From a phage: DNA of 64,000 bases. Shown piece by piece: positions 1-27,706 of the stretch (position 1 is its first letter; each line of letters begins with the position of its first letter). The stretch lies in sequence record PZ445489.1; one strand, written 5' to 3'. Position numbers and translations under genes: made by a program. Under the pieces are notes generated by a model, which was not told the DNA's origin, did not search any database, and saw nothing but the letters and a program-made list of their open reading frames with translations.

Positions 1-573
1 ACTTTCGTTGATAGATGTAAATAAGAACTTGATTTGACCCTGAGTTACTTTAACATTAGATTCTAGTATTAAGTGCATTCGGATACCTGGTTTTAGCCCA
101 GCCGAAGATGACGCATGAGCGATAAACCCTGCATCAAGAGGAAACATATCCTCACTAATACTATTTAACATCCTAATAATATGTCGAGCCATGCCAACAA
201 GATCAAACTTGTTACAACCTCCTGTATCTACAATACCATCCACATCCATTGCGATTATATGACTTGGATTAGATACATTAAAGTTGCCCTTCTTACGTCG
301 CACATTATTTTTAGGTGCAAGACATCGACCTCGTACCGCAACGATATGAGGGTCAGACGTTAAACGTCTCATAAGAGGAAGCATTTCTACTAGGGTTTGA
401 GGATCAACTTCATCAATTACATCAAACTTGAAGGGCATTGAAGCTGGTTTACCTTCAGGATGCTTTGAGGAAAATCTTTTAGCAAAAAGATAATCTTCTG
501 CTTTAACTTCTCGCCAATTGCCTGTGGCTAAATCGCGATGAAATCCTGCATGACCTTGTAGGATTGAAAACAC
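1..573 (-). CDS. hypothetical protein, 3' end truncated by window edge
   Basis: Open minus-strand frame running off position 1; GTG at 571-573 with AGGAG 7 nt upstream; absent from ORF track because incomplete. Confidence 0.45.
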   Translation of the reverse strand, partial: MFSILQGHAGFHRDLATGNWREVKAEDYLFAKRFSSKHPEGKPASMPFKFDVIDEVDPQTLVEMLPLMRRLTSDPHIVAVRGRCLAPKNNVRRKKGNFNVSNPSHIIAMDVDGIVDTGGCNKFDLVGMARHIIRMLNSISEDMFPLDAGFIAHASSSAGLKPGIRMHLILESNVKVTQGQIKFLFTSINES

Positions 574-1059
574 AACAATACTCCTGTATTGGAAATGAAA
601 TAAGTTTTCTTTAGGACTATTCAGAAAGAATAGAACAACTGTTACTGTCAATTTCTCAACAAATTAATCGCAAATACTGAAGGGGGGTGGCAACTTCCCC
701 TTTCACGCTACACTGCCGCTTCACTATACCGCACAAATCCTTGAGGATGGCCGCTAAGCCAGATTTGCTCACCTAATGCTTCATGTACTAGCTCATACTA
801 GATGTAGTATACCTTACGTCATCACTTCTCAGAGTTTTTCACTCTTCCCGTCTCACTTCACAACCACCTCACACTAGGTTGCTTCGAGGCCTTACCAGGG
901 TTCCTACGGGATGTAGATCGCTAAGTATTCTATTAACTATTTGTTTAAAAACTAACACGTAACAGTTAAAACAACCCTTAATGGGGCAGCCTAACTGTTC
1001 CGTATCGCGGATTGTAAACAAGAAAAATTAGCAAAATCAATTTTTACTAATGTCTCTCA

Positions 1060-1112
1060 ATTCAATATAAATATTATATCAAGATTTTGGGCATCATGCA
1101 AGTAAAATTTTC
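1060..1112 (-). promoter_or_regulatory. T5-type sigma70 promoter, minus strand
   Basis: On minus strand: TTGCAT (1096-1101), 17-nt spacer, TATAAT (1073-1078), conserved leader. Confidence 0.5.
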
Positions 1113-1139
1113 CGGATGGTGCTATCATTGGTCTTGAGT

Positions 1140-1172
1140 ACGGATAAAACCGAGCCAAAATGACTCGGTTAT
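1140..1172 (-). terminator. hairpin terminator downstream of 1178..1375
   Basis: Minus-strand hairpin aaccgagtcattttggctcggtt followed by T-rich run. Confidence 0.4.
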
Positions 1173-1177
1173 GTGGA

Positions 1178-1375
1178 TTAGACACTTAAAATACTTCTAA
1201 TCTCTTCTATATACTTATCTACTTTTTTAGCATCTACTTTATTTAGTTTTCCTATATCAAAACTAGGATCAGTAAACATTCTAGCTATCTCTATCTCTAG
1301 AGACTTACTAATTTTCCCTGTAGTATTCCACTTAGAAATCTTACCTTTTATTTTCCAAAATTCCTTATTCATCAT
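1178..1375 (-). CDS. hypothetical protein (65 aa)
   Basis: ORF; start overlaps stop of upstream gene (translational coupling). Confidence 0.4.
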   Translation of the reverse strand: MMNKEFWKIKGKISKWNTTGKISKSLEIEIARMFTDPSFDIGKLNKVDAKKVDKYIEEIRSILSV

Positions 1376-1757
1376 TTAATCCCGGAACATATATCCCAAC
1401 ACGGTTTAATTGTTCTTTAGCTTCTTTGAGAATATCTGGAGTGTACTCCCAAATATCATCTTCCACCTGTAAAAGATGGGGCGAACAACCATCATCAGGC
1501 ACACGACATATGGCAAAACCACGTGGATGGAACAAAGAGAAATTTAGTGCAACAATTAAACCCATAGCAGACAATTCATTCCAATCCAATTCCCATTCCC
1601 CAGCGTAGCCTGATAGGCAAACACCAATACAGGGATCGTCTATTTGCTGCTCCGGAAAAGTGAAGGAGACTTGTCTTACTCCCAACCAACGTTGTAGCAG
1701 CTTCTCCGCACGTTTCACCAAACTAGGGTCAATCTGACGCCAATATACTTGTTCCAT
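1365..1757 (-). CDS. hypothetical protein (130 aa), paralog of 1767..2195
   Basis: Shares motifs with neighbour: SF.F....ID.PCIG, W.EL..MGL..ALN..LF.P, G..IPGL. Confidence 0.55.
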   Translation of the reverse strand: MEQVYWRQIDPSLVKRAEKLLQRWLGVRQVSFTFPEQQIDDPCIGVCLSGYAGEWELDWNELSAMGLIVALNFSLFHPRGFAICRVPDDGCSPHLLQVEDDIWEYTPDILKEAKEQLNRVGIYVPGLNDE

Positions 1758-1766
1758 TCTGCCTCC

Positions 1767-2195
1767 TTAAGCAGTTAAACCTGGGATCATATACCCGAAA
1801 CGTCGAAGTTTCTGAATCCCCTCATTTACTTCTTCCGGTGAGTAAGACCAACCATAACGTTCATTAACCTGAAAACCAGGAGATTCACTAGTTTTATAGT
1901 TAACAACGAGGCGATGCTTAGCAGGCATAAACAGCTTATAGTTTAACGCAAAAACTAAGCCCATTTCATCTAACTCTTTCCAGCCAACAATTTCTTCAAG
2001 ACCATCTTCTACCTGCACAATTAAACCAATACAGGGGGCCTCATCAATATCATCTTTAAAAGCAAAGGAGATTTCATTATTCTCACACCATATTTTCAGA
2101 GCATTAATAGCCTCATTGTACAGGTTGGCTGGAAGAGTATGCCAAAAATTAACCAATATTGGGTTAGCTTCTTTAGAGAATACATTATTGAACAT
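1767..2195 (-). CDS. hypothetical protein (142 aa), paralog of 1365..1757
   Basis: Tandem duplicate of downstream gene by shared motifs. Confidence 0.55.
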   Translation of the reverse strand: MFNNVFSKEANPILVNFWHTLPANLYNEAINALKIWCENNEISFAFKDDIDEAPCIGLIVQVEDGLEEIVGWKELDEMGLVFALNYKLFMPAKHRLVVNYKTSESPGFQVNERYGWSYSPEEVNEGIQKLRRFGYMIPGLTA

Positions 2196-2197
2196 AT

Positions 2198-2704
2198 TTA
2201 CACCTTAAATTGTTGTAAGGATTTACACATTTCAAGATCTGGGCTAAATTCTAGCATATAGCTAACAGCTTTTAAATCTTGAAGATTTATTCCAGTTCTA
2301 CCATTGACTATAACTGTTGGATACTGATACATCATAGCACCAGCGTCATCCAGTACACACCAATGTTTGAGCTTATGCTTTTCAACGAAGCGAAGAACAG
2401 AATTACCCCTAGATAGCCCACCACCAGTAAAATCCGTTGTACCAAGAAAACGATCGATAAGACCTAATCCGGTCATAATCTGAACGTTCTCCATCTCATT
2501 CCTGACAGAGAACCATGAGGATACTCCAACAATCATTATCGGAGAAGGACGAATAAAGTCCTGAAAAGCCTTGAGAAGCGGTTTGAAAACCCAGTCACTT
2601 CCAAAGAAAATCTTTTCATCATCAGGTGCATGATGGTGGGAGATGCTCGAATTGAGCACCCCATCAATGTCTAGAAAAATAATTGGAGTATTACTTATTT
2701 CCAT
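2198..2704 (-). CDS. HAD-superfamily phosphatase-like protein
   Basis: N-terminal IIFLDIDGVLN resembles HAD motif I (DxDGT/V). Confidence 0.5.
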   Translation of the reverse strand: MEISNTPIIFLDIDGVLNSSISHHHAPDDEKIFFGSDWVFKPLLKAFQDFIRPSPIMIVGVSSWFSVRNEMENVQIMTGLGLIDRFLGTTDFTGGGLSRGNSVLRFVEKHKLKHWCVLDDAGAMMYQYPTVIVNGRTGINLQDLKAVSYMLEFSPDLEMCKSLQQFKV

Positions 2705-2873
2705 TTTTGTTCCTTTCTAAGAACGTATCATACTCAACCGTATTCACATATATAACACCATAGTCATCGGATTTATAGTCCATTTCCCACAACTCACAGC
2801 GATAGTACCAACTACCGTCCGCCCATACAAATATATCATCAGGGTGTGTATACACAGATTTAATTATGGACAT
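2691..2873 (-). CDS. hypothetical protein (60 aa)
   Basis: ORF with start/stop overlaps to neighbours in operon. Confidence 0.35.
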   Translation of the reverse strand: MSIIKSVYTHPDDIFVWADGSWYYRCELWEMDYKSDDYGVIYVNTVEYDTFLERNKNGNK

Positions 2874-3688
2874 ATTTGTTTCCCTGGCATATAAGGTCTA
2901 CCCTCTAGATGAGCTTCTACACGAGCAATAAAATCAGGGTCACTAAAAGCATCTACCGCACCTTTACTCCAGTAAGGAATACCACGATCTTCCAACTGGT
3001 ACATCTCACTACGAGTCATACCTTGATAGCCCGGTTCTGCCGCTAGGGCACTATCGTAGTAGTTAACTACCATTAATTTGGCAGCAGTCAAATTAAGAAC
3101 AGGAAATAATTCCCAGTAGAAGTTAATTACTTGGTTAGAACAACCAACCACAATGATCATATCTTGACTGGTAATATCATCAAAAACATTGTACATTTCT
3201 GTATATGCTGGAGCATGCTCACCAAAGAAGATTACATTAGGTTTAACCCATTTATAATCATCTGGGTCAATAGAGCTATACCCAACATCAATAATTCGTT
3301 TATTACTACTATTGTAGCTGTCAGCTACAACAACCTCTTTTAAATATCCGTGAATGTGCAGAATGTCACTATGTGGAACGCCAGCACGTTCAATAAGGTC
3401 ATCAACATTGGTAGTCAAGTTTACTACTTGACCTGGATATTGTTTATACCATTCACCAATACGCAAATGTGCAAGATTGGGTTCAACAGTTTTTAGCTCT
3501 TCACGACGCTTGTTGTAAAACATATGGGTTTTATGATAAAAATTACCACGAAAGGCATGAATATTACATACTTCTTCTAGATTATAATCATCCCACAATG
3601 CTTTACCACTAGCAGTATCAGTACGAAAAGCTCGTACACCACTTTCAACACTCAAACCCGCACCGCTAATAATAATTAATCTACGCAT
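2864..3688 (-). CDS. Sir2-family (sirtuin-like) NAD-dependent protein
   Basis: Motifs SGAGLSVESGVRAFR, TTNVDDLIERAG, ILHIHG, IVVGCS match sirtuin signatures. Confidence 0.7.
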   Translation of the reverse strand: MRRLIIISGAGLSVESGVRAFRTDTASGKALWDDYNLEEVCNIHAFRGNFYHKTHMFYNKRREELKTVEPNLAHLRIGEWYKQYPGQVVNLTTNVDDLIERAGVPHSDILHIHGYLKEVVVADSYNSSNKRIIDVGYSSIDPDDYKWVKPNVIFFGEHAPAYTEMYNVFDDITSQDMIIVVGCSNQVINFYWELFPVLNLTAAKLMVVNYYDSALAAEPGYQGMTRSEMYQLEDRGIPYWSKGAVDAFSDPDFIARVEAHLEGRPYMPGKQICP

Positions 3689-18067: not shown

Positions 18068-18517
18068 ATGAAGGCAGCTTTGCTTTTAGTAGCTGCCCTT
18101 ACCTTCAGCTTTAGTAGTCAGGCATCGCACGATGCAAAAGAAATAGATTGCATTGCTAAAAATATCTATTTCGAAAGTCGTGGTGAGGGCATAAAGGGAA
18201 TGACGGCGATTGCACACGTTACTAAAAACCGTGTAAACTCCGGTAAATTCCCAGATTCCTACTGTAAAGTAGTATATCAGTCTAACCAGTTCTCTTGGGT
18301 ATCTAAGAGACCAAAAGTTGATAAAACTGATGAGGCTTGGCAAACCGCTAAGAATTTAGCTAGAGTGATATACTACGTTGATTTACCACAAGATCCTACA
18401 CATGGAGCACTATACTTCCATAGTGGTAAAGATAAACCTTACTGGACAAAGAAGTTTAAGAAAACAACTAAGATTAAGGGACATACGTTTTATAAACCTG
18501 TTGTCACTAAAACTTAA
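18068..18517 (+). CDS. secreted cell-wall hydrolase (SleB/CwlJ-like)
   Basis: Signal peptide MKAALLLVAALTFSFSSQA, then hydrolase-like region IAKNIYFESRGEG..AIAHVTKNR. Confidence 0.6.
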   Translation: MKAALLLVAALTFSFSSQASHDAKEIDCIAKNIYFESRGEGIKGMTAIAHVTKNRVNSGKFPDSYCKVVYQSNQFSWVSKRPKVDKTDEAWQTAKNLARVIYYVDLPQDPTHGALYFHSGKDKPYWTKKFKKTTKIKGHTFYKPVVTKT

Positions 18518-20048: not shown

Positions 20049-20123
20049 CGGGGTGTAGTCTAAGGGAGAGGCAGGAGTCTTCTAAATTCCTTTATGCAGG
20101 TTCGAATCCTGTCACCTCGGCCA
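20049..20123 (+). tRNA. tRNA-Arg (anticodon TCT)
   Basis: Hand-folded cloverleaf: acceptor cggggtg/cacctcg, anticodon loop CTTCTAA, T-loop TTCGAAT, encoded CCA. Confidence 0.7.
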
Positions 20124-20157
20124 ATTTTATTAACTGTAACTAAAACAAAGGAAATAT

Positions 20158-21105
20158 ATGTTTAATACTAAAAATATGAAAGAACTGACTTCTGAGCAGA
20201 AAGTAATTCGTACTATTAAACGTTGGGGTATTGGTGCTGTAGTTGGTTTAGCAGGCTTGATTCTAGCCTTTAATTCATATACTATTGTTTCTGATGGTAC
20301 GGTTAAAACCCAAACATTTCTGGGTAAAGTAGATCCTAACCCAGTATTACCAGGTTTCCATCTTGTAAACCCATTTGCATCTTTCGACACTTTTAGTACA
20401 AAAGATATTGCTGTAAAATTAGATAAACTTCAGGTTCCTAGCCAGGATAAGTTTAAATCCACTGTTGACCTGACTGTTATGTTGCAGTTTGATGGTTCTA
20501 AGGCACCAATTAACCGTATTAACGCAGGTACTCAGGATCAAGCGTTAGACAAATATGTAACTGAAAAATTACTGTCTACTATTCGTGAGTTTGGTAAGTC
20601 TGTACCTAAAGCACAAGATTTGTTTGATGCTAAAATTCAGGCTCAATTGCAAACTGCAATTCAACAGGAAGTTGAAGAGTATGCACGCCCATATGGTTAC
20701 ACAGTTAAGCAGGTATTCCTTCAGGATATTACTTTGCCACCGGTAATCATGGAACAGGTACAGAATACCAAAGTTCGTGAAGAACAGGTTAATGCTGCTA
20801 AAGCTGAATTAGCTCGTGTTGAACAGGAAGCACAGCAAAAAGTTAAACAAGCAGAAGCAGATCGTGAAGCTCGCAACAACCAAGCTATCGCTAATGAACG
20901 TGACGCAGATGCTAAACTGTACGCAGCTAAGAAAGAAGCTGAAGCTAACGCCGCACTGCAACGTACCATTACTCCTGAGATGATTCGTTGGAAACAACTG
21001 GAAGTCGAAATGATTCGTGCTCAGAAATATCAAGGTGGTGTACCACAGACTGTGGTAGGTACTGGCTACGATGGTCAAATGATCATGGATATGCGTAATA
21101 AATAA
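20158..21105 (+). CDS. SPFH/band-7 (prohibitin/HflC-like) membrane protein
   Basis: N-terminal TM helix then SPFH-like region and Ala/Gln/Glu-rich coiled coil. Confidence 0.7.
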   Translation: MFNTKNMKELTSEQKVIRTIKRWGIGAVVGLAGLILAFNSYTIVSDGTVKTQTFLGKVDPNPVLPGFHLVNPFASFDTFSTKDIAVKLDKLQVPSQDKFKSTVDLTVMLQFDGSKAPINRINAGTQDQALDKYVTEKLLSTIREFGKSVPKAQDLFDAKIQAQLQTAIQQEVEEYARPYGYTVKQVFLQDITLPPVIMEQVQNTKVREEQVNAAKAELARVEQEAQQKVKQAEADREARNNQAIANERDADAKLYAAKKEAEANAALQRTITPEMIRWKQLEVEMIRAQKYQGGVPQTVVGTGYDGQMIMDMRNK

Positions 21106-21127
21106 TATCCGCATGTAACATCTGAAG

Positions 21128-21170
21128 TAAGCCCTGCGTTCCCTGGAGAGCGCAGGGCTTTTCTTTTATC
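21128..21170. terminator. rho-independent terminator
   Basis: agccctgcg..cgcagggct stem followed by TTTTCTTTT. Confidence 0.6.
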
Positions 21171-21180
21171 TTAAATACAG

Positions 21181-21220
21181 AAAAGCCCCTAAGTCTTTCG
21201 ACTAGGGGCTTTATTGTTTG
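21181..21220. terminator. rho-independent terminator between convergent genes
   Basis: aaaagcccctag..ctaggggcttt stem with A/T runs on both sides. Confidence 0.6.
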
Positions 21221-21225
21221 GTTCT

Positions 21226-21420
21226 TCAGAACCACACTCTCGGTGTACAGCAACCACCCATACGGGAGGCCAATCTTGACTGAAAATCTACTCTAGGGGG
21301 CAGGATAAGAGTAGGCTTAAAGGCAAAGGGATTGAACGCCGGTATTTGTGTAAACATTGCTGGAGAGCAACAACGTGCTACAGGCATTGGGCAGCACGAA
21401 ACAGGTTTTCTGCAACACAT
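21226..21420 (-). CDS. Cys-rich small protein (64 aa)
   Basis: Strong RBS AAGGAG 5 nt before ATG; four CC pairs. Confidence 0.4.
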   Translation of the reverse strand: MCCRKPVSCCPMPVARCCSPAMFTQIPAFNPFAFKPTLILPPRVDFQSRLASRMGGCCTPRVWF

Positions 21421-21429
21421 AATTTCTCC

Positions 21430-21846
21430 TTAGGAGTTATTACCACCATTTTGAGCTTTTGCAACTTGGCTTTGGCAGAAGCTATTAAACTTACCCATAA
21501 GTGATACAAGCTGCTTCCCATCCTCTGTCTTTGCGAAGTCTTCGAAAAGGGCTAGTACTGCCTGTCCTTCCGCAGAAACCTGCGGTTGTTGGGTTTGCTG
21601 CTGAACTTGCTGCTGCGGCATCTGTTGTTGCATTTGTTGAGGCATTTGCGACTGCCCGCTCATTTGCTGCATCATTTGCATAGGACTCACACTTCCAGGG
21701 TTTTGCTGGAGTTGTTGTTGCATCTGTTGCGCTTCTGCTAAACGCTGTTGCAATTGTTGTAAGTAGGGGTTATCCAGACCCGGAATGGGCTGCTGGGAGC
21801 CCATACTTTGATTAAGTCCGTTATTTACAAAACCATATTTACTCAT
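21430..21846 (-). CDS. Gln-rich low-complexity protein (138 aa)
   Basis: ORF with poly-Q/M repeats and structured C-terminal segment. Confidence 0.5.
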   Translation of the reverse strand: MSKYGFVNNGLNQSMGSQQPIPGLDNPYLQQLQQRLAEAQQMQQQLQQNPGSVSPMQMMQQMSGQSQMPQQMQQQMPQQQVQQQTQQPQVSAEGQAVLALFEDFAKTEDGKQLVSLMGKFNSFCQSQVAKAQNGGNNS

Positions 21847-21867
21847 AATGGGCTCCTCCCCTTAATA

Positions 21868-22860
21868 TTAAGCCGGCAGTTTAGCCTGCAGACCAGCCAG
21901 AGTCTGAGTGATAGCACCAAGACTTACAGCGATTTGATTAATTACCTGACCGTTAGCACCGTTACCCGCAGCGATTGCTTCACGTAGGCGACATGCATCT
22001 AACTCATCCTGAATACGAGCAGTAGTTACACCAGCGATAGCAGTCTGAAGTTCACAGCAACATTCAGCGATCTGACGTTCCAGAGAGTTCTGGTTAGCAC
22101 ACATCTGAGCCTGAACAGCGGCAAACTGGTTATTAGTTTGTAAAGTCTGCTGGAAAGCGATCTGTGCAGAATCAAACTTATCTTGTGCACGAGCTATCTG
22201 ATTAGCTGCGAAAGATTGATCAATCTGGCGAGAAAGATCGAACTGACCCTGAATAACGTTGCGAGTTTCCTGACAGATCTGATTAGACAGATTAGCACCT
22301 GTACCATAGATCGTAGTTAGTACAGACTGAGTATCACGGCTCTGGTTTTGGGATGTCTGGCTAAACCCATTGTTAACTGCGCTTAAAACAGCTCCAGTAC
22401 CCTGGTTAGCTTCTGTACGAGTAGTGTTAATAGCTGCTAGAATACTAGCGGTATCTTGGTTCTGAAGTACTGCATCAACTGCGGTACCATCACCAACTAC
22501 ACCACGTCCACCGAATCCACCGAAACCACCGAATCCGCCTGTTAATAGAGCACCGATTAGGATAGCTCCGAATAGTCCCATACCTTCACCACCGAAAGCA
22601 CCTGCGTTTGCTGGGTAACCACCCAGTAGGCCAGGGAAGCCACTAGTAAATACGTTTACTGGTTCTTGCATTTTATGTTTTCCATATTTATGACAATGTT
22701 CATCGTCATCTTCTTCATCATCGTGTTCACGATGTTTTTCTTCGTAGGCTCTGACCTTCTCCCACTTTTTCTTATCTGATTCCTCGTGACGGTGCAGTTC
22801 TGCTGCAACGCTAGCGACGGTCTCAGGACTCTTAGCTACTTCTTCTGTCATTTTTGACAC
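21868..22860 (-). CDS. membrane protein with His/acidic N-terminus, Gly-zipper TM segment and Q/N/T-rich domain
   Basis: GLFGAILIGALLTGGFGGFGGFGG hydrophobic Gly-rich segment; ECCCELQ cluster; RBS GGAGG. Confidence 0.55.
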   Translation of the reverse strand: MSKMTEEVAKSPETVASVAAELHRHEESDKKKWEKVRAYEEKHREHDDEEDDDEHCHKYGKHKMQEPVNVFTSGFPGLLGGYPANAGAFGGEGMGLFGAILIGALLTGGFGGFGGFGGRGVVGDGTAVDAVLQNQDTASILAAINTTRTEANQGTGAVLSAVNNGFSQTSQNQSRDTQSVLTTIYGTGANLSNQICQETRNVIQGQFDLSRQIDQSFAANQIARAQDKFDSAQIAFQQTLQTNNQFAAVQAQMCANQNSLERQIAECCCELQTAIAGVTTARIQDELDACRLREAIAAGNGANGQVINQIAVSLGAITQTLAGLQAKLPA

Positions 22861-22912
22861 CTCCTAGTATATAGAAAATGTGTGTCTCTTTGATCACTCA
22901 TCCATAACATAT

Positions 22913-22942
22913 ACTTTACACTACCCCAGCGAAAATGTCAAG
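22913..22942 (-). promoter_or_regulatory. candidate sigma70 promoter for leftward operon
   Basis: Minus strand TTGACA (22936-22941), 16-nt spacer, TAAAGT (22914-22919); not the T5 early consensus. Confidence 0.3.
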
Positions 22943-23043
22943 GGGTCTTTAAAAATTGCCCCTGAATTTTTAGTGGGGTCACAAATTTTGGTCCTCACCA
23001 CTTATCTGCTATCCTTAAGTGCCCTATGATTTTCCTCTAAAAA

Positions 23044-23104
23044 GTTAAAAAATTTGATTGCTTGAATGCTAAATTCTCTGTATAATATATCTATAAATTT
23101 GAAA
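23044..23104 (+). promoter_or_regulatory. T5-type early promoter
   Basis: TTGCTT 23058-23063, 17-nt spacer, TATAAT 23081-23086. Confidence 0.65.
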
Positions 23105-23116
23105 GAGGAACCAAAT

Positions 23117-23635
23117 ATGAATGTTGATGAGCTAACACAGCACCTCTTATCTAGAGGATTTGATACAGATAAATATCATTGCTGGTTAAGTCCGGAAGGA
23201 TGGCTAACAGTCCCGTTGTATGACTTCTCTGGGATGTTGAGGGGCTATCAAACTTATAATCCTTCTGCTCCAAAAGGTCATGGTAAGTGCCCCTTTGAAG
23301 CTAAATACTTTACTTATTCTACTACCCAGTGTGTATGGGGACTAGAAACTCTCAATGGAGATGAAAAAGTAGTATTGATTGCTGAATCTGTATTTAAGGC
23401 AGTTGCGTTACATAATGCTGGTTATCCAGCCCTAGCAATGTTGGGTTCTTCTCCAGGAAAAGCGTTATTAAAGCAACTGAAATTACTACCTTTTAAATTG
23501 GTAGCTGTCGGAGATAATGATCCTGCGGGTGAAAAATTTGCTAGAAAATTAAACGGCTTTGTTTCTCCCGTAGATGTGGATGAGATGTCTACCGAAAACT
23601 TGAAAAATTTTCTTGCTATGAAGCTAAATTTCTAA
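23117..23635 (+). CDS. Toprim-domain-like protein (172 aa)
   Basis: VVLIAESVFKAVAL..LVAVGDNDPAGEKFARKL resembles Toprim acidic motifs; ATG 23117 after GAAAGAGG. Confidence 0.45.
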   Translation: MNVDELTQHLLSRGFDTDKYHCWLSPEGWLTVPLYDFSGMLRGYQTYNPSAPKGHGKCPFEAKYFTYSTTQCVWGLETLNGDEKVVLIAESVFKAVALHNAGYPALAMLGSSPGKALLKQLKLLPFKLVAVGDNDPAGEKFARKLNGFVSPVDVDEMSTENLKNFLAMKLNF

Positions 23636-23655
23636 TATAATATATCTTATAAATT
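23600..23655 (+). promoter_or_regulatory. T5-type promoter inside 3' end of CDS, upstream of tRNAs
   Basis: TTGCTA 23613-23618, 17-nt spacer, TATAAT 23636-23641. Confidence 0.55.
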
Positions 23656-23656
23656 C

Positions 23657-23745
23657 GGAAGAATAGCATAACGGTATTGCAGCAGATTGCTAATCTGTCG
23701 GTTTGAAATATAGCCTTGTGGGTTCGATTCCCGCTTCTTCCGCCA
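23657..23745 (+). tRNA. tRNA-Ser (anticodon GCT)
   Basis: Acceptor ggaagaa/ttcttcc, anticodon loop TTGCTAA, 19-nt variable arm, T-loop TTCGATT, CCA. Confidence 0.7.
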
Positions 23746-23751
23746 AATTCT

Positions 23752-23829
23752 GGTTCTCAAGCTCATATGGTATGAGCACCCGGCTCATAACCGGAAGGTA
23801 CGTAGGTTCGAATCCTCGGGGAGCCACCA
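23752..23829 (+). tRNA. tRNA with anticodon CAT (Met, fMet or Ile2 undetermined)
   Basis: Acceptor ggttctc/gggagcc (2 G-U), anticodon loop CTCATAA, T-loop TTCGAAT, CCA; T-stem has 2 mismatches. Confidence 0.55.
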
Positions 23830-23848
23830 AATTAAATAGAGGTCACAA

Positions 23849-24037
23849 ATGGATCTATATATAGTTTATGTTGTGTTTATCCAAGATAGAGAATACCCGG
23901 ATGAATATAAAAAAGGATATAGGTTAGCCAGAGCTACCTCTGAAGCCCAAGCTATGGATAAAGTGGCAGATTATATGATTACGGTAGAAAACATACACTA
24001 TATCGACTACCTTGAAGCCTCAAAAGTAATTGACTAA
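23849..24037 (+). CDS. hypothetical protein (62 aa)
   Basis: ORF with GAGG RBS. Confidence 0.4.
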   Translation: MDLYIVYVVFIQDREYPDEYKKGYRLARATSEAQAMDKVADYMITVENIHYIDYLEASKVID

Positions 24038-24046
24038 GGAGACTAT

Positions 24047-24232
24047 ATGTCTAAGTTTCAAGAACTCAAGCAAGAGCTAGAAGAATGTGCCTGCCCTGAG
24101 TGTAGAGGAATTGGTGAAAGTTCTGATGCAGAAGCAGGAGATACTTTTTGCAATATCTGGGTTTGCCCAAATTGCAATGGTACAGGTATTAATCCTAACT
24201 GTGGTATTTCCCTAGATATTGAACGAGGATAA
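24047..24232 (+). CDS. Cys-rich zinc-ribbon-like protein (61 aa)
   Basis: CACPECRG...CPNCNG paired CxxC motifs. Confidence 0.4.
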   Translation: MSKFQELKQELEECACPECRGIGESSDAEAGDTFCNIWVCPNCNGTGINPNCGISLDIERG

Positions 24233-24333
24233 TACCTGTAAAACTAAAAGATTATTATATTGGTTGGTTTGTGGGACTAGTAGTAGGATTTTCACTAGGC
24301 TATAATATGTATCAACTAATAAACTGATTACAC

Positions 24334-24410
24334 GGGGGTGTAATCGAATTGGCATAGGTACTGGACTTAAAATTCAGGTTTTGTGGGTTCGAATCCCACC
24401 ACCCCTACCA
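24334..24410 (+). tRNA. tRNA, anticodon TAA (Leu codon UUA) with short variable loop
   Basis: Acceptor gggggtg/cacccct, anticodon stem ctgga/ttcag, loop CTTAAAA, T-loop TTCGAAT, CCA. Confidence 0.55.
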
Positions 24411-24425
24411 AACTAAGGAAATAAG

Positions 24426-24593
24426 ATGTATAGACATCCACCTCCGCCAACACGTCGTTCTAGAGAAGTTATCCTCATGGAATTGACTAAAAACTTCAAG
24501 GCAACTCTTGAAGATAGAGATCTAGGTACAGATGAAGACGTTGATTTCATTTGTAAACTATTAAAAATGAAGCTGGAGAAACATCATGGCTAA
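24426..24593 (+). CDS. hypothetical protein (55 aa)
   Basis: ORF with AAGGAA RBS; stop overlaps next start. Confidence 0.4.
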   Translation: MYRHPPPPTRRSREVILMELTKNFKATLEDRDLGTDEDVDFICKLLKMKLEKHHG

Positions 24594-24792
24594 CCGTGAA
24601 ATTACTATGCAACGAATCATGACTAAAGGCATGATAGCCGAGGCAGGTATTGAACAAGAAGTAAAAGGCTATTACGAACAGATTAAGACTATTATAGACT
24701 CTGCTAAAAACACCGGAGAAAAAGAACACGGTGCAGCAATTATGGCTATAACTCTTATTAGCCTAGACTTAGCTGAAGAATCTGGAGTTTAG
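24586..24792 (+). CDS. hypothetical protein (68 aa)
   Basis: ORF, ATGGCTAA overlap with upstream ORF. Confidence 0.45.
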   Translation: MANREITMQRIMTKGMIAEAGIEQEVKGYYEQIKTIIDSAKNTGEKEHGAAIMAITLISLDLAEESGV

Positions 24793-24809
24793 CTCCTCCA
24801 AACAGAATT

Positions 24810-24868
24810 TTTAAAAATGTACTTGCCTTTTGCTTTAAATTTCTGATATAATAGTTGTATAAATTGAT
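24810..24868 (+). promoter_or_regulatory. T5-type early promoter
   Basis: TTGCCT 24823-24828, 18-nt spacer, TATAAT 24847-24852. Confidence 0.6.
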
Positions 24869-24882
24869 GAAGGAGTTAACGA

Positions 24883-25158
24883 ATGCAAAATCGTGTTGTA
24901 GCAACTGGTATTGAAAGTGCAATCTGCAAATCCTGGGAAGACTGGGAAGGTGAGATTGAGTGGCTCTATCTCTATAACGTAGATCTTCTACCGGAGGTTA
25001 AAGCTAAATGTATTGAAGCTGGCATGGCTCCAGATGCAAAAGCTGATATTGATATTTCAATGTCTGAACTTAAAGGTCGTGTAATTACTGTTAGTGATGA
25101 GGGCGAAGAAGTTTTCGAACTTCCGTTCTCCTTAACTGTCACTCCTAAGTTCGACTAA
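24883..25158 (+). CDS. hypothetical protein (91 aa)
   Basis: ORF with AAGGAG RBS. Confidence 0.5.
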   Translation: MQNRVVATGIESAICKSWEDWEGEIEWLYLYNVDLLPEVKAKCIEAGMAPDAKADIDISMSELKGRVITVSDEGEEVFELPFSLTVTPKFD

Positions 25159-25181
25159 CTAATACAGCACTGAGCAAGTTC

Positions 25182-25238
25182 TTTAAAATTTGACTTGCTC
25201 AGTGCCTTAAAACTTGGTATAATATTTACCTAATTTGG
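25182..25238 (+). promoter_or_regulatory. T5-type promoter upstream of tRNA block
   Basis: TTGCTC 25195-25200, 16-nt spacer, TATAAT 25217-25222. Confidence 0.55.
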
Positions 25239-25288
25239 AAACATATTTAAAAGTGTTTAAATGAGAATTTTTGAATACTTCTAAATAT

Positions 25289-25379
25289 GTTGGATTAGTA
25301 TCGTAGAGGTAGCGAAGCAGACTGTAAATCTGCCGACTCGGAAGGGTCTCGGGTGGTTCGACTCCATCATCCAACACCA
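25289..25379 (+). tRNA. tRNA-Tyr (anticodon GTA)
   Basis: Acceptor gttggat/atccaac, anticodon stem gcaga/tctgc, loop CTGTAAA, 18-nt variable arm, T-loop TTCGACT, CCA. Confidence 0.7.
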
Positions 25380-25386
25380 AATTTAA

Positions 25387-25463
25387 GTCCTGTTAGACAA
25401 ACTGGTAAAGTCACTACCCTTTCAAGGTAGGATTTGCGGGTTCGATCCCCGCACAGGACGCCA
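25387..25463 (+). tRNA. tRNA-Glu (anticodon TTC)
   Basis: Acceptor gtcctgt/acaggac, anticodon stem ctacc/ggtag, loop CTTTCAA, T-loop TTCGATC, CCA. Confidence 0.7.
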
Positions 25464-25471
25464 ATTTCTGC

Positions 25472-25548
25472 ATTCCTAGAGTGTTACTGGACAGCATGTC
25501 GGTCTCCAAAACCGTACGGTCTAGGTTCGAGTCCTAGTAGGTTTGCCA
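25472..25548 (+). tRNA. tRNA-Trp (anticodon CCA), possibly degenerate
   Basis: Perfect T-arm ctagg-TTCGAGT-cctag, anticodon loop CTCCAAA, CCA; acceptor stem has two U-U mismatches. Confidence 0.5.
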
Positions 25549-25554
25549 AAATTT

Positions 25555-25629
25555 GCACCTTTAGCTGAGATGGATTAGCGCTTGCCTGAAGAGCTTGAGA
25601 GGTTCGTTCGATACGAACAGGGTGCACCA
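25555..25629 (+). tRNA. tRNA-Phe (anticodon GAA)
   Basis: Acceptor gcacctt/agggtgc, T-arm gttcg-TTCGATA-cgaac, loop CTGAAGA; anticodon stem has 2 mismatches. Confidence 0.5.
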
Positions 25630-25646
25630 AATTGAAGGAGCTGCTG

Positions 25647-25919
25647 ATGCATCCTGAAAACTTCTTTATTTACTGCGCTGATAAGTCGCTAAAACGTAGA
25701 ATTAACAAAGTCTACCATTATCGTGCTAGTCAACAGCCTTATGTATATGCTTTTGACGGTGATCACATTCCATTAGAACAATTATCTTGTGATTACATGA
25801 TATTAAAGAACTTTGACGAGACGAAGATCTCAAGCGTTCACAATCGGCAGAATCCATTAACGTGGAAATATAAGAAGAAAAAGAAAGGCATCAAATTCTT
25901 AAAAAATATAGTTGCTTAG
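25647..25919 (+). CDS. hypothetical protein (90 aa)
   Basis: ATG 25647 after AAGGAG RBS (track start 25632 is TTG). Confidence 0.5.
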   Translation: MHPENFFIYCADKSLKRRINKVYHYRASQQPYVYAFDGDHIPLEQLSCDYMILKNFDETKISSVHNRQNPLTWKYKKKKKGIKFLKNIVA

Positions 25920-25955
25920 TTTCCAAAAGTTCTGTATAATAATTACATAAATTGA
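25898..25955 (+). promoter_or_regulatory. T5-type promoter
   Basis: TTGCTT 25912-25917, 17-nt spacer, TATAAT 25935-25940. Confidence 0.55.
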
Positions 25956-25988
25956 ACTGGAGAAGCAACATGACAGAACAAGATAAAC

Positions 25989-26064
25989 CGACCGTTGGCT
26001 GAATGGCTTAGGCGAAGGATTGCAAATCCTTTTTATGTGAGTTCAAATCTCATGCGGTCGTCCA
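25989..26064 (+). tRNA. tRNA-Cys (anticodon GCA)
   Basis: Acceptor cgaccgt/gcggtcg, anticodon stem aagga/tcctt, loop TTGCAAA, T-loop TTCAAAT, CCA. Confidence 0.65.
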
Positions 26065-26071
26065 AATTTTA

Positions 26072-26154
26072 GGGTCGTTAGCCAAGCGGTTTGGCGGTGG
26101 ACTGTTAATCCATGTCGAAAGACAACGTAGGTTCGAATCCTACACGGCCCGCCA
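26072..26154 (+). tRNA. tRNA-Asn (anticodon GTT) with 13-nt variable hairpin
   Basis: Acceptor gggtcgt/acggccc, D-stem gcca/tggc, anticodon loop CTGTTAA, variable gtcGAAAgac, T-arm gtagg-TTCGAAT-cctac, CCA. Confidence 0.6.
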
Positions 26155-26256
26155 AATTCTGTGTAGAGTTAAGTAAACCGGTAGCCAACCAGCTATCATT
26201 GCTGACATCGAATTCAGCCACAGATACCATTTTCATTAATAACTGAGGAAACAAGC

Positions 26257-26442
26257 ATGTCCAAGAATGTAATTGCGCAGCTAGAAGTTCATCGTGATAG
26301 CACTATCAACAATATTGAAGTTGAAAAGAAATACATCGAAGAACTTAAACATGATATACTAGTGAGTCTCAACCGTCTTAATGTACGAAAAGAGTTTCTT
26401 AAAGAACTTAATGCAGCTATTGAAAAACTCAAAGCTGAGTAA
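26257..26442 (+). CDS. hypothetical protein (61 aa)
   Basis: ORF with GAGGAA RBS. Confidence 0.45.
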   Translation: MSKNVIAQLEVHRDSTINNIEVEKKYIEELKHDILVSLNRLNVRKEFLKELNAAIEKLKAE

Positions 26443-26451
26443 ATGAATTAT

Positions 26452-26528
26452 GCGACCGGGGCTGGCTTGGTAATGGTACTCCCCTGTCACGGGAGAGAAT
26501 GTGGGTTCAAATCCCATCGGTCGCGCCA
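26452..26528 (+). tRNA. tRNA-Asp (anticodon GTC)
   Basis: Perfect acceptor gcgaccg/cggtcgc, anticodon stem ctccc/gggag, loop CTGTCAC, T-loop TTCAAAT, CCA. Confidence 0.75.
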
Positions 26529-26554
26529 AATTAATTTAGTATGAGAAATATGCT

Positions 26555-26902
26555 ATGATTAATGCTAAAGAAGAATTGTTACTTGCCCTAAAGAATACTA
26601 ATTCTGAAGTTAAGTGTATTAAGATAGAATTCGGTTATTATGGAGACAAAGAAGTTTGGGTATTACCCGTAGGTTATACAGAAAAAGATATTGAAGATTT
26701 TCTAAATAATCTAGACTTTAAATATGATTCTGGTTTCGGTGGACAATTGCTTTATGGTAACGTATGGTTTACTGATGGAACTTGGTTAGAACGTGGTGAA
26801 TATGATGGTTCTGAATGGTGGGAATATAAGACTACACCAGCAATTCCAGAGGAATGCCGAACAATTAATGGTGAAGTAGATCGTACTTTACTATTAAATT
26901 AA
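26555..26902 (+). CDS. hypothetical protein (115 aa)
   Basis: ORF. Confidence 0.5.
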   Translation: MINAKEELLLALKNTNSEVKCIKIEFGYYGDKEVWVLPVGYTEKDIEDFLNNLDFKYDSGFGGQLLYGNVWFTDGTWLERGEYDGSEWWEYKTTPAIPEECRTINGEVDRTLLLN

Positions 26903-27024
26903 CAAAATCTCAGTGCAGAACACGGAGCTAGCAATTCGGAAGTGCTGACTCATGATAAGCTGCCTATGTACTTGCGAAGCGGTCGTGTCCAAGACTCGGA
27001 CTCTTGCACTGAAAACAATCAAAC

Positions 27025-27145
27025 ATTCTAGCGTGGTTGATGGGGAAACCAGCTTGGCTAGGGCAGAAGCTCGTTCGATTCGAGTGAAAGAATGGTTCTC
27101 GTAAGTCCGCACAAGTGATAGCAGGTTCGAGTCCTGTCTAGAATG
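27025..27145 (+). ncRNA. tRNA-like RNA with about 50-nt internal expansion (about 121 nt)
   Basis: Perfect 7-bp acceptor pairing attctag/ctagaat 113 nt apart, canonical T-arm gcagg-TTCGAGT-cctgt, D-arm-like hairpin; no normal anticodon arm. Confidence 0.35.
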
Positions 27146-27334
27146 ACATATTCTGGAGGTTTTGTGAATTACAAAGAATTAGATCTTTTAGCAAATAAAT
27201 TCACAGAGCTATCTGATAACGTTGTATCAAAGGACTCCAACATAGATAATTTTATTACTGAATATCGTGATGGTATAATCTCTAAACAAGAGTTGTTAGA
27301 TAAAACGTATAAATATTTAAAGGGGTTCAGCTAA
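27143..27334 (+). CDS. hypothetical protein (63 aa)
   Basis: ORF; start overlaps end of tRNA-like element; weak RBS. Confidence 0.35.
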   Translation: MTYSGGFVNYKELDLLANKFTELSDNVVSKDSNIDNFITEYRDGIISKQELLDKTYKYLKGFS

Positions 27335-27631
27335 ACGGTTAAGCACTGTCCTACTTCGGACAGAGGGAGTAACACGTAGTCTCCCAAACTCCCCCAAATT
27401 TAGATTTCTGCTTCCTAGAGAACGGACTTCTGAATAAACAAGGCGATGAAGTTTCCGGCCGGTTCTAGTCGCTAAAGTCCCTCTAACGGGGCGTAAGTAA
27501 ATGAAAGTTTACTTATTATGTAGGTTCCGATAGATCGGCGGGTCTATTCTGGCATTTAAGAGAGGTCTCGCAAACTTCTTTGTCAGCCGTGGGGTTGGTA
27601 GCCTCCAGGTGGCCTACACAATAAGTAAATT

Positions 27632-27692: not shown

Positions 27693-27706
27693 AGAAGGAA
27701 AGCAAA

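What the first reader, a model, noticed from the sequence alone, without database searches (positions are those of the whole stretch)
600..1112. Minus-strand T5-type promoter with a roughly 470-nt ORF-free leader
A match to the T5 early promoter on the minus strand (1060-1112) initiates about 470 nt upstream of the next minus-strand CDS (start 573). The leader has a purine-rich segment and hairpins and no ORF with an RBS. It could be a long structured 5' UTR or a separate small RNA.
Basis: seen in the sequence. Interest (0 to 1): 0.45.

Follow-up and report, generated by a model that had tools for sequence, protein, structure and literature searches.

The report
Structured leader RNA before T5 helicase
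The roughly 490 bases between a T5-type early promoter and the phage's replication-initiator helicase gene (D2, annotated 'origin-binding protein') are not spacer: they encode a large, evolutionarily conserved folded RNA that matches no catalogued RNA family and whose role is still unknown.

Summary
A T5 early-class promoter lies on the minus strand (-35 at 1101-1096, -10 at 1078-1073, predicted start A1066). It is followed by 493 nt with no conserved ORF, then the GTG at 573 of the D2/'replication origin binding' helicase gene. T5 itself has an annotated promoter at the same place.

The leader is a conserved structured RNA. It has a 5' hairpin (P1), an invariant ~26-nt motif, and a 27-37-bp long-range stem (P2). 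P2 encloses a ~250-nt multi-helix core that carries a C-UUAGCG-G hairpin loop. A small hairpin and the ribosome-binding site follow.

Evidence for the fold:
- 37 of 63 core pairs show compensatory double changes, against 13 in shuffles (0 of 500 shuffles reach the observed value).
- A model built from four lineages finds untrained Klebsiella-phage, Eos and T5-type versions at the homologous spot.
- G·U asymmetry places the fold on the gene strand.

There is no Rfam match, no iterons, and no literature report in the held library.

Function is inferred only. I favour a cis-acting leader or processing element for D2 mRNA, with P2 as a possible RNase III stalk. Rivals are an origin or primer transcript and an excised trans-acting RNA.

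The parts
1148..1170 (-). Terminator-like hairpin (AACCGAGTCA-TTT-TGGCTCGGTT, then TTTATCC) that ends the upstream operon, just before the promoter
   Evidence: Inverted repeat I8. Annotated as a terminator at the homologous place in phage HASG4 and in T5. The simple terminator scan did not list it.
1066..1112 (-). T5 early-class sigma-70 promoter: A/T tract 1112-1102, -35 TTGCAT 1101-1096, 17-bp spacer, -10 TATAAT 1078-1073, predicted +1 at A1066
   Evidence: Sequence. Alignment with T5 P-N25, P-N26 and the promoter annotated upstream of T5.108. Early-promoter discriminator ATATT (PMC7472727). The start site is inferred, not measured.
1019..1059 (-). P1, a hairpin at the 5' end of the transcript (about 16-17 bp, several G·U pairs); it starts in the GAGAGA block of the promoter's downstream region
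   Evidence: RNAalifold on types A and B. A hairpin of 16-21 bp sits at the same place in all lineages, with 7 of 14 pairs showing double changes.
981..1006 (-). Conserved, mostly unpaired motif GAUACGGAACAGUUAGGCUGCCCCAU; it is the best-conserved primary sequence of the leader
   Evidence: Invariant in types A and B and nearly so in Pectobacterium phages; recognisable in Klebsiella phages, Eos and L087. Unique in the window.
925..968 (-). P2, 5' arm of the long-range A/U-rich stem
   Evidence: Pairs with 678-636. The flanks of the core pair over 27-37 bp in 9 of 9 lineages, z -2.7 to -8.0. Sense is much more stable than antisense in 9 of 9.
677..924 (-). Core domain, 248 nt (243-257 nt in seven lineages). 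Helices and motifs: P3 CUACAU 916-911 with GUGUAG 713-708; P4 CCCGU/ACGGG; a hairpin followed by conserved GAGAAGUG (830-823); stem 767-761/740-734 closing the loop that carries the GGC-UUAGCG-GCC hairpin (760-749); hairpin 704-679 with loop AAGUUGCCAC
   Evidence: Alignment A5: 63 pairs, 93.8% paired, 37 with double changes against 13.2±2.7 in shuffles, 0/500; slid controls 36-43% paired. Model R1 hits. Alignment A9: 51 of 63 pairs with double changes. 83 G·U against 12 A·C cells.
636..678 (-). P2, 3' arm
   Evidence: As for the 5' arm. Inverted repeats I1 and I4. Compensatory AACUGUUAC/GUAACAGUU to AACUAUUAC/GUAAUAGUU in T5-type relatives.
617..633 (-). P11, small hairpin CUAUUC-UUUCU-GAAUAG between P2 and the ribosome-binding site
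   Evidence: Predicted in types A and B. A hairpin of different sequence sits at the same place in Klebsiella phages (CUAUC/GAUAG), Eos (CCAUC/GAUGG), Pectobacterium phages (CUUUCC/GGAAAG) and L087 (AUACUAU/AUAGUAU).
571..585 (-). Shine-Dalgarno AGGAG (585-581) and the GTG start codon (573-571) of the D2/'replication origin binding' helicase gene
   Evidence: Sequence. The same start is annotated in related records.
1..573 (-). 5' part of the D2 helicase gene (T5.108 homologue, phrog_3712); it runs off the window
   Evidence: tblastn and annotations. Pfam Herpes_ori_bp in the full-length T5 protein. It is the D2 bipolar helicase of Wong et al. 2013 (PMC3632103).

Best explanation
**Shown.**
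- The window is a T5-like phage.
- An early-class promoter that would use host RNA polymerase (+1 near 1066, minus strand) precedes a 493-nt non-coding leader. The leader continues, with no terminator predicted, into the mRNA of D2, the UL9-like SF2 helicase that Wong et al. proposed as the T5 replication initiator.
- The leader is a member of a previously uncatalogued family of large structured RNAs found in enterobacterial Demerecviridae.
- Its parts, in order, are a 5' hairpin P1, an invariant single-stranded motif, and a 27-37-bp A/U-rich long-range stem P2. P2 closes a core of about 250 nt that has at least nine helices and conserved loops (GAGAAGUG; C-UUAGCG-G). Then come hairpin P11, an A/U-rich linker and the ribosome-binding site.

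**Inferred.** The RNA acts in cis on D2 expression.
- P1 would protect the primary 5' end.
- The G-rich, C-poor, tightly folded body would let a long untranslated leader escape Rho and RNase E.
- P2 is a plausible RNase III processing stalk. Cleavage there would detach the folded core and leave D2 mRNA with a new 5' end capped by P11.
- The conserved loops are probably binding sites for a protein, possibly D2 itself or another early protein, that sets the amount of initiator made.
For: **Promoter.**

**Non-coding.**

**Conserved arrangement.**
- The non-coding stretch always lies directly upstream of the D2 gene, on the same strand.
- The leader is 472-498 nt in most lineages, although the sequence has diverged beyond alignment in places.
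- The core is 243-257 nt in seven lineages.

**Structure.**
- Within window-type phages there are 5 compensated pairs; within T5-type phages 7 pairs show double changes in the pair table (the tool's header says 6). None of these pairs is broken in any sequence, though a few other predicted pairs have single mismatches.
- Across four lineages, on a sequence-only alignment, 93.8% of cells are paired, against 81.3% in shuffles and 36-43% when the partners are slid. 37 pairs have double changes against 13.2±2.7, with 0 of 500 shuffles as high.
- Model R1 finds the untrained Klebsiella phage (E 4e-9), Eos (2e-3) and, with filters off, T5 and relatives (1e-3). Each hit is full length and at the homologous coordinates. 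There is a single hit in the 64-kb window.
- With those sequences added, 51 of 63 pairs carry double changes.

**P2.** The 48 nt on either side of the core pair over 27-37 bp in 9 of 9 lineages (0/500 shuffles in 7, 1/500 and 6/500 in the other two), with unrelated arm sequences.

**RNA of the gene strand.**
- 83 G·U cells against 12 A·C cells.
- The sense P2 duplex is more stable than the antisense one in 9 of 9 lineages, for example -30.2 against -7.5 kcal/mol in T5.
- The sense domain MFE is 11-30 kcal/mol lower than the antisense one.

**Cis linkage.**
- The terminator scan lists no site in 1-3000.
- In the 42 distinct leaders compared, the only insertion is a 97-nt module after P1; the blastn match spans over 538 records point the same way.
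- Homing-endonuclease insertions lie upstream of the promoter.
Against: - No transcript start, processing site or RNA structure has been measured.
- The ribosome-binding site is not consistently sequestered in the predicted folds. The CAAUAC/GUAUUG hairpin around the Shine-Dalgarno is broken in most relatives, and 5'-3' pairings to the start region differ between lineages. A simple translational on/off switch is therefore not indicated.
- P2 is irregular in Klebsiella phages and Eos (z -3.2 and -2.7; absent from their MFE folds). If RNase III processing exists it may not be universal.
- A core of about 250 nt is far larger than known translational operators.
- The two very divergent 'alleles' of the core between identical flanks look more like something engaged with a changing partner than a plain stabiliser.
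- Providencia/Proteus phages and L033/34 keep the architecture by eye but are not found by the model. Vibrio and Aeromonas relatives have longer gaps with no detectable similarity.
Confidence: 0.45

Rival explanations
1. Origin transcript. The promoter and its folded, G-rich RNA form (part of) the primary T5 replication origin. Host RNA polymerase would make an RNA that folds and leaves an R-loop or primer next to the initiator gene. The D2 helicase would load on the displaced strand. Precedents are ColE1 RNA II, the T4 ori(uvsY)/ori(34) R-loops and the T7 primary origin.
For: - The element sits directly beside the gene of the proposed initiator helicase in every lineage.
- It is a strong early promoter followed by about 490 nt of non-coding, structured, G-rich RNA, similar in size and layout to the 555-nt ColE1 RNA II (general knowledge).
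- It lies at about 48.5% of the T5 map (58999 of 121750). From memory, electron microscopy placed first-round initiation near the middle of the genome (Bourguignon et al. 1976; the paper is not held). Wong et al. mention only multiple internal origins.
- No T5 origin has been defined at sequence level in the papers I could read.
Against: - There are no iterons or other direct repeats.
- No antisense promoter of the RNA I type lies inside the leader.
- Selection is visibly on intramolecular RNA pairing, not on the DNA.
- The transcript appears to run on into D2 as mRNA.
- The location of the T5 origin rests on memory and is described as multiple origins.
Confidence: 0.2
2. Excised trans-acting RNA. 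RNase III would cut P2 and release a stable RNA of about 300 nt. That RNA would work away from the D2 message, for example as a decoy or sponge for a host factor or defence system, or as the RNA subunit of a phage ribonucleoprotein.
For: - P2 is a 27-37-bp duplex closing a compact domain of constant size, the geometry of rRNA processing stalks.
- Two highly divergent versions of the core lie between near-identical flanks in otherwise close phages. This is a cassette-like pattern expected for a molecule in an arms race or with a co-evolving partner.
- Conserved loop motifs (UUAGCG, GAGAAGUG) look like recognition sites.
Against: - In the lineages examined the RNA is never found apart from the D2 gene, and there is one copy per genome.
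- It has no terminator of its own.
- It has no similarity or complementarity to E. coli sequence at blastn sensitivity.
- No other site in the window matches the long conserved motif on either strand.
- P2 is weak in two lineages.
Confidence: 0.2
3. DNA-level element. The inverted repeats would act in double-stranded or cruciform DNA, as protein-binding sites, a recombination site or a miniature transposon with terminal inverted repeats, rather than in RNA.
For: Long inverted repeats flank a variable segment of about 250 bp, and the central segment exists in two forms.
Against: - The complementarity relies on many G·U pairs. The antisense or DNA version is far weaker in 9 of 9 lineages.
- There is one copy per genome, always at one locus.
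- Internal helices covary as well, which DNA binding sites would not require.
Confidence: 0.03
4. Missed small protein genes. The leader would encode the short CDSs that some GenBank records annotate there (38-50 aa).
For: Several records annotate 2-3 small 'hypothetical proteins' in this stretch. ORFs of 38 and 50 aa exist in the window.
Against: - The starts are TTG or GTG, and the window copies have no Shine-Dalgarno-like purine run just upstream.
- Positions, frames and lengths differ between lineages, and phage L027 has no ORF of 25 aa or more.
- T5's own record annotates none.
- The substitution pattern is pairwise-compensatory.
Confidence: 0.02

Closest known systems
RNase III-processed phage and bacterial mRNA leaders (lambda N leader, T7 early-region R sites, E. 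coli pnp and rnc leaders)
   Same: A host-polymerase transcript begins with a long untranslated leader that holds an extended duplex just upstream of the regulated gene. Cleavage in such duplexes changes translation or stability of the downstream message (general knowledge). Here P2 offers at least 22 bp of duplex in most lineages.
   Different: - Those leaders are local hairpins of tens of nucleotides. Here the duplex is long-range and encloses a conserved multi-helix core of about 250 nt.
- No cleavage has been shown.
- There is no sequence or Rfam similarity.
ColE1 RNA II pre-primer and transcript-primed phage origins (T4 ori(uvsY)/ori(34), T7 primary origin)
   Same: A strong promoter drives a non-coding, folded, G-rich RNA about 500 nt long, next to replication functions.
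   Different: - There is no antisense RNA I promoter and no defined origin or RNase H site.
- The transcript continues into a protein gene.
- Homology is absent.
rRNA processing stalks (long-range stems flanking 16S and 23S rRNA, cut by RNase III)
   Same: A long-range helix formed by sequences some 330 nt apart brackets a compactly folded RNA.
   Different: The bracketed RNA is about 250 nt and of unknown function. It lies in front of a protein gene in a phage.
Large structured non-coding RNAs often carried by phages (GOLLD, ROOL, HEARO/omega RNA)
   Same: It is a large, intricately folded, covariation-supported RNA in a phage genome, without a known biochemical role at discovery.
   Different: - It matches none of their Rfam models.
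- It is smaller.
- Its position is fixed in front of one particular gene rather than near tRNA genes or nucleases.
T4 translational operators (gene 32 pseudoknot, gene 43 hairpin, RegA sites)
   Same: These are 5' leader RNA structures of replication genes, through which the encoded or a partner protein limits its own synthesis. That is the type of control proposed here.
   Different: Those operators span 20-40 nt and overlap the ribosome-binding site. This element is ten times larger and ends about 60 nt before the start codon.

Membership tests
T5 early-class sigma-70 promoters (P-N25 / P-N26 type) | -35 TTGC(T/A), 17-bp spacer, -10 TATAAT, upstream A/T tract | tested here: met
   TTGCAT-17-TATAAT with AAAATTTTA upstream. 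In the alignment with annotated T5 P-N25, P-N26 and two further T5 promoters, TTGC and TATAATA are invariant.
T5 early-class sigma-70 promoters (P-N25 / P-N26 type) | Discriminator ATATT and downstream TTGAGAGA-like block | tested here: met
   TATAATATT and TTGAGAGA are present. The ATATT rule comes from PMC7472727.
T5 early-class sigma-70 promoters (P-N25 / P-N26 type) | Transcription starts there early in infection | not testable with these tools
   No transcriptome data are available. The T5 record lists the orthologous site only as 'promoter'.
Any Rfam 15 family (riboswitches, T-box, RNase P, tmRNA, 6S, GOLLD, ROOL, group I/II introns and others) | Match to the family's covariance model | tested here: not met
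   No hit reaches a gathering score. The best in the region is 17.6 bits against 36 (an archaeal snoRNA, chance level). The same holds for nine related loci.
tRNA / tmRNA | Cloverleaf detected by ARAGORN | tested here: not met
   23 tRNA genes are found in the window, all at 20049-32159 on the + strand. None is found at 574-1066.
RNase III substrate | About two turns (20 bp or more) of mostly regular dsRNA | tested here: met
   P2 has 27-37 bp in 9 of 9 lineages. It is regular in seven and irregular in Klebsiella phages and Eos.
RNase III substrate | Cleavage by RNase III in vivo or in vitro | not testable with these tools
   This needs Northern blots or end-mapping in rnc+ and rnc- hosts.
ColE1-type RNA II primer / R-loop origin | Antisense regulator (RNA I) promoter opposite the 5' part of the transcript | tested here: not met
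   No promoter-like site lies on the + strand within 574-1066.
ColE1-type RNA II primer / R-loop origin | DNA synthesis initiates at the 3' end of the RNA | not testable with these tools
   No replication-initiation data are available.
Iteron-type replication origin | Array of direct repeats (initiator binding sites) next to an A/T-rich unwinding element | tested here: not met
   In 500-1250 there are only three two-copy direct repeats of 10-15 nt, and none forms an array.
Miniature inverted-repeat transposable element | Terminal inverted repeats in DNA, multiple copies or variable locations | tested here: not met
   One copy in the window and one place per genome in more than 500 records. The repeat depends on G·U pairing on one strand.
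Conserved structured RNA (general criterion) | Base pairs kept through compensatory changes, above controls, on an alignment not fitted to the structure | tested here: met
   On MAFFT alignment A5, 37 of 63 pairs have double changes against 13.2±2.7 in shuffles (0/500). 93.8% of cells are paired, against 36-43% for slid partners.

The most novel reading that the evidence does not exclude
The folded RNA is the cis-acting heart of the long-undefined primary replication origin of T5-like phages. It would be an RNA-structured, transcription-primed origin whose conserved loops (C-UUAGCG-G, GAGAAGUG, the 26-nt 5' motif) are recognised by the D2 helicase encoded immediately downstream. P2 would mark where RNase III releases or positions the RNA. 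The two divergent core 'alleles' would then be origin-initiator specificity types.
Probability: 0.15. Interest if true: 0.85.

Novelty: new variant of a known kind. Interest (0 to 1): 0.62.

Why it matters
T5 is a classical model phage, and its early promoters are standard tools. Even so, neither its replication origin nor the control of its initiator helicase is defined at sequence level in the literature I could reach.

A 330-nt RNA domain with strong covariation, conserved from E. coli and Salmonella phages to Klebsiella and Pectobacterium phages, sits exactly in front of that helicase gene. That points to an unrecognised layer of RNA-based control, or RNA-based initiation, of phage DNA replication.

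Practical consequences:
- It gives a testable target, through deletion and compensatory mutants, rnc hosts, and RNA-seq end mapping.
- It shows that the small 'hypothetical protein' CDSs annotated in this stretch in many GenBank records are probably spurious.
- It provides a new family for RNA databases.

Tried and rejected
- **Rfam.** Scans of the region and of nine related loci, at permissive E-values, gave nothing above chance.
- **ARAGORN.** No tRNA or tmRNA in the leader.
- **Small-ORF hypothesis.** Rejected, because no ORF is conserved in place or frame.
- **Iterons.** None found.
- **DNA cruciform or inverted-repeat reading.** Rejected by strand asymmetry.
- **Alternative pairing of the 5' motif AACAGUU with the P2 5' arm** (inverted repeat I2). 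Rejected, because T5-type relatives change the arm to AACUAUU together with the P2 3' arm and not with the motif.
- **Long-range pairing of leader positions 60-66 with the spacer between the Shine-Dalgarno and GTG**. Not conserved in other lineages.
- **Pseudoknot partners for the UUAGCG loop and for GGCUGCC.** Searched by eye; no consistent partner was found.
- **Second copies of CTTAGCGG** at 18345 (-) and 41146 (+). Not above chance, and the model finds no second copy.
- **MAFFT alignment of all lineages together.** It mis-registers the T5-type and Klebsiella versions. Q-INS-i was not usable.
- **Model R1.** It does not detect the Providencia/Proteus, L033/34, Vibrio or Aeromonas regions. 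blastn finds no similarity among the Vibrio and Aeromonas gaps.
- **Host similarity.** No match in 5,426 E. coli genomes.
- **Literature.** Seven full-text searches found no description of this leader. Two of them were too broad to be informative. Bourguignon et al. 1976 is not held.
- **N-terminal 385 aa of D2.** No informative PDB match.
Full report
**What the window is**

The 641 bases around the finding are 99.5% identical to phage NBSal005 and match 524 T5-like phage records. Most neighbours are Tequintavirus. The minus-strand gene that starts at GTG 573 is the homologue of T5.108, annotated 'replication origin binding'.

Its only Pfam match is Herpes_ori_bp, at residues 389-533. That identifies it with the D2 bipolar SF2 helicase studied by Wong et al. 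2013, who proposed it as a replication-initiation protein (PMC3632103).

**The observation**

On the minus strand the elements read as follows:
- an A/T tract at 1112-1102;
- TTGCAT at 1101-1096, then 17 bp;
- TATAAT at 1078-1073;
- ATTTAT, then A1066.

The generic scan does not list it because TTGCAT shares only three positions with TTGACA. Aligned with the promoters annotated in the T5 record, however, it matches P-N25 and P-N26 column for column. TTGC, TATAATA and the downstream TTGAGAGA block all line up. It is almost identical to the promoter annotated at T5 58999-59073, and in T5 the next CDS starts at 59545. It also carries the ATATT discriminator reported for all known T5 early promoters (PMC7472727).

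A terminator-like hairpin at 1148-1170 closes the upstream operon. The leader is 493 nt (1066-574).

Its ORFs are short, mostly TTG- or GTG-initiated and not conserved. Positions and frames differ between lineages, and one T5-type relative has no ORF of 25 aa or more. The central part is the most G+C-rich stretch of the neighbourhood and is G-rich on the transcript. Only the start site itself is inferred.

**Conservation pattern**

Thirty-one homologous loci were aligned.
- The first ~140 nt and the last ~70 nt of the leader are almost invariant.
- The central ~250 nt exist in two forms of equal length that can barely be aligned. One is a 'window type'. The other is a 'T5 type'.
- The one conserved island in the central part is GGCTTAGCGGCC.

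A long non-coding gap precedes the D2 gene in every Demerecviridae genome I fetched:

| Phage | Gap before D2 |
|---|---|
| Klebsiella Sugarlandvirus | ~490 nt |
| Eos | ~600 nt |
| Pectobacterium phage (DU_PP_V) | ~600 nt |
| Providencia phage | ~715 nt |
| Metagenomic relative L087 | 523-nt leader (promoter to start) |
| Vibrio phages | 0.7-1.1 kb |
| Aeromonas phage | 1.8 kb |

More distant metagenomic relatives (40% identity) have a different, A/T-rich divergent intergenic region instead. The promoter-to-start distance is 472-498 nt in most enterobacterial lineages.

**Structure**

Single-sequence folds of eleven representatives show a common plan:
- a 16-21-bp hairpin at the very 5' end (P1);
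- a long-range helix spanning 319-333 nt (P2);
- a set of internal helices.

Covariation within each form is as follows.
- Window-type phages (over 90% identical): RNAalifold finds 5 pairs with compensatory double changes. Examples are CUACAU/GUGUAG to CUGCGU/GCGCAG, and GGGG/CCCC to GUGG/CCAC. None of the 5 pairs is broken.
- T5-type phages, analysed independently: 7 pairs show double changes in the pair table (the tool's header says 6), in helices at nearly the same columns.

I then delimited the core by homologous anchors. It is 243-257 nt in seven lineages.

| Test | Result |
|---|---|
| MAFFT (sequence-only) alignment, window type plus L087 plus two Pectobacterium phages | 63 pairs; 93.8% of cells paired (shuffles 81.3±0.8, 0/500) |
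| Same alignment, pairs with double changes | 37 (shuffles 13.2±2.7, 0/500) |
| Same alignment, 3' partners slid by 1-3 columns | 36-43% paired; covariation score 0.45 falls to 0.10 or less |
| Model R1 on untrained sequences | Klebsiella phage E 4e-9; Eos E 2e-3; T5 and relatives E 1e-3 (filters off); all full length, at the homologous coordinates |
| Model R1 on the whole window | no second hit |
| Model-fitted alignment of 12 sequences (leans towards the structure) | 51 of 63 pairs with double changes (shuffles 27±3.2, 0/500) |

**P2 and strandedness**

I took the 48 nt on each side of the homologously defined core. They form a 27-37-bp duplex in 9 of 9 lineages, with z from -2.7 to -8.0. 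No shuffle out of 500 reaches the observed value in seven lineages. One of 500 does in Klebsiella phages and six of 500 in Eos. The arm sequences are unrelated between lineages.

The pairing uses many G·U pairs: 83 G·U cells against 12 A·C cells in the core. The reverse-complement strand gives a much weaker P2 in 9 of 9 lineages (T5: -30.2 against -7.5 kcal/mol). The whole-domain energy is 11-30 kcal/mol worse on that strand.

The selected structure is therefore in the RNA of the gene strand. It is not a DNA cruciform or transposon ends. The structure was predicted on that strand, which biases the G·U count somewhat. The duplex-energy comparison does not share that bias.

**Conserved unpaired motifs**

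- GAUACGGAACAGUUnGGCUGCCCCAU lies between P1 and P2 (1006-981).
- GAGAAGUG follows a covarying hairpin (830-823).
- A small hairpin has the consensus S-C-[UUAGCG]-G-S. It is presented in a large loop closed by a covarying stem. Variants are GGC/GCC, GAC/GUC and GCC/GGU. The Aeromonas phage gap also contains CUCC-UUAGCG-GGAG.
- The loop of the last core hairpin reads GUUGCCA or a variant.

I found no consistent pairing partner for any of these motifs.

**What it is not**

- No Rfam 15 family matches.
- There is no tRNA or tmRNA in the leader.
- There are no iterons.
- No antisense promoter lies in the leader.
- There is no similarity to E. coli genomes.
- No other site in the window matches the long motif on either strand.
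- Seven full-text searches and three papers read on T5 replication and transcription do not mention the element.

**How it most likely works**

Shown:
- the promoter class;
- the non-coding nature of the leader;
- the conserved fold on the sense RNA;
- the fixed position in front of D2.

Inferred:
- The tight physical linkage to D2 argues for a cis role in D2 expression. No terminator is predicted, and in the 42 distinct leaders compared the only insertion is a 97-nt module right after P1; the blastn match spans over 538 records point the same way.
- A 5'-terminal hairpin, a G-rich and C-poor folded body and a hairpin (P11) just after P2 are what one would expect of a long untranslated leader that must resist Rho, RNase E and 5'-end-dependent decay. 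This follows from general knowledge of bacterial mRNA decay.
- P2 has the dimensions of an RNase III site. Cleavage would separate the core from the message.
- The conserved loops suggest a bound protein.

Against a simple translational switch, the ribosome-binding site is not consistently occluded. I put this reading at about 0.45. That the element is a genuine conserved structured RNA I put above 0.9.

**Rivals**

1. An origin or primer transcript in the manner of ColE1 RNA II or the T4 and T7 origins (0.2). It is attractive because of the neighbouring initiator gene and the mid-genome position. It lacks iterons, an antisense regulator and any replication data.
2. An RNase III-excised trans-acting RNA (0.2). 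The stalk-plus-compact-core geometry and the two divergent 'alleles' between identical flanks support it. The invariable linkage to D2 weakens it.
3. A DNA-level element (0.03).
4. Small proteins (0.02).

**Novelty and score**

The promoter is already annotated in T5. The structured RNA appears undescribed. It is a new RNA family of a known general kind: a large structured leader or non-coding RNA in a phage. It sits at a biologically pointed location in a model phage.

Interest is 0.62. It would be higher if the origin or trans-acting readings prove true.

Noticed in passing
L014:~2500-2600, L026, L031 (homologous to window ~1020, just after P1): Some T5-like phages carry an extra 97-nt module inserted right after the P1 hairpin. 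It is flanked by a duplicated TTTTTCTT and has its own predicted hairpin (AUUUACGG/CCUGUAAAU). It occurs on both window-type and T5-type backgrounds, in 51 phage records, at one place per record.
   Followed up: partly
L009:1959-2465 (also L016, L021): A 168-aa HNH homing-endonuclease-like ORF is inserted between the DUF7415 gene and the leader. It replaces the usual promoter region with a different TTTGCA...TATAAT promoter that joins the leader at the GAGAGA block.
   Followed up: partly
window 656-772 (-), 869-1021 (-), 1057-1185 (-): Several GenBank records annotate short 'hypothetical protein' CDSs inside this leader. One 38-aa ORF is even named 'putative replication origin-binding protein' (GEC_vB_N5 gp135). 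They overlap covarying RNA helices, are not conserved, and are probably spurious.
   Followed up: yes
L004 (T5 NC_005859) 59545-62331 versus 63122-63826: There is a naming conflict. The RefSeq record labels T5.111 (705 nt) as gene D2 'helicase'. Wong et al. 2013 describe D2 as the protein with PF02399 at residues 392-532, which is T5.108, the gene downstream of this leader.
   Followed up: partly
window 1365-1757 (-) and 1767-2195 (-): Two adjacent paralogous genes each encode a DUF7415 domain (E 4e-32 and 1e-33). They lie between a Sir2-like gene and the leader. In some records the homologue of the 1767-2195 gene is annotated 'exonuclease' (GEC_vB_N5), and in Pectobacterium phage DU_PP_V the gene just upstream of the gap is annotated 'tail tube protein'.
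   Followed up: no
window 20049-32159 (+): A cluster of 23 tRNA genes lies on the plus strand, opposite in orientation to the replication-gene block at the left end of the window.
   Followed up: no
L038:1326-2431, L092:1535-2374, L091:1773-2503, L039:~860-2311: Vibrio and Aeromonas Demerecviridae have much longer (0.7-1.8 kb) non-coding gaps before the D2 homologue, in which single-sequence folds predict extensive pairing. Single-sequence folds predict long-range stems spanning about 330 nt in phi3 and AhSzq-1, and AhSzq-1 has a CUCC-UUAGCG-GGAG hairpin. No sequence similarity or model hit links them to the enterobacterial RNA.
   Followed up: partly
window 1011-1040 (-): A second, weaker promoter-like site (TTGATT-18-TACAAT) lies inside the 3' arm of P1. 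It could be a chance consequence of the A/T-rich hairpin.
   Followed up: no
window 18345-18352 (-) and 41146-41153 (+): There are two further exact copies of CTTAGCGG. The count (3 against 1.3 expected) is not significant, and the covariance model finds no second copy of the RNA.
   Followed up: partly
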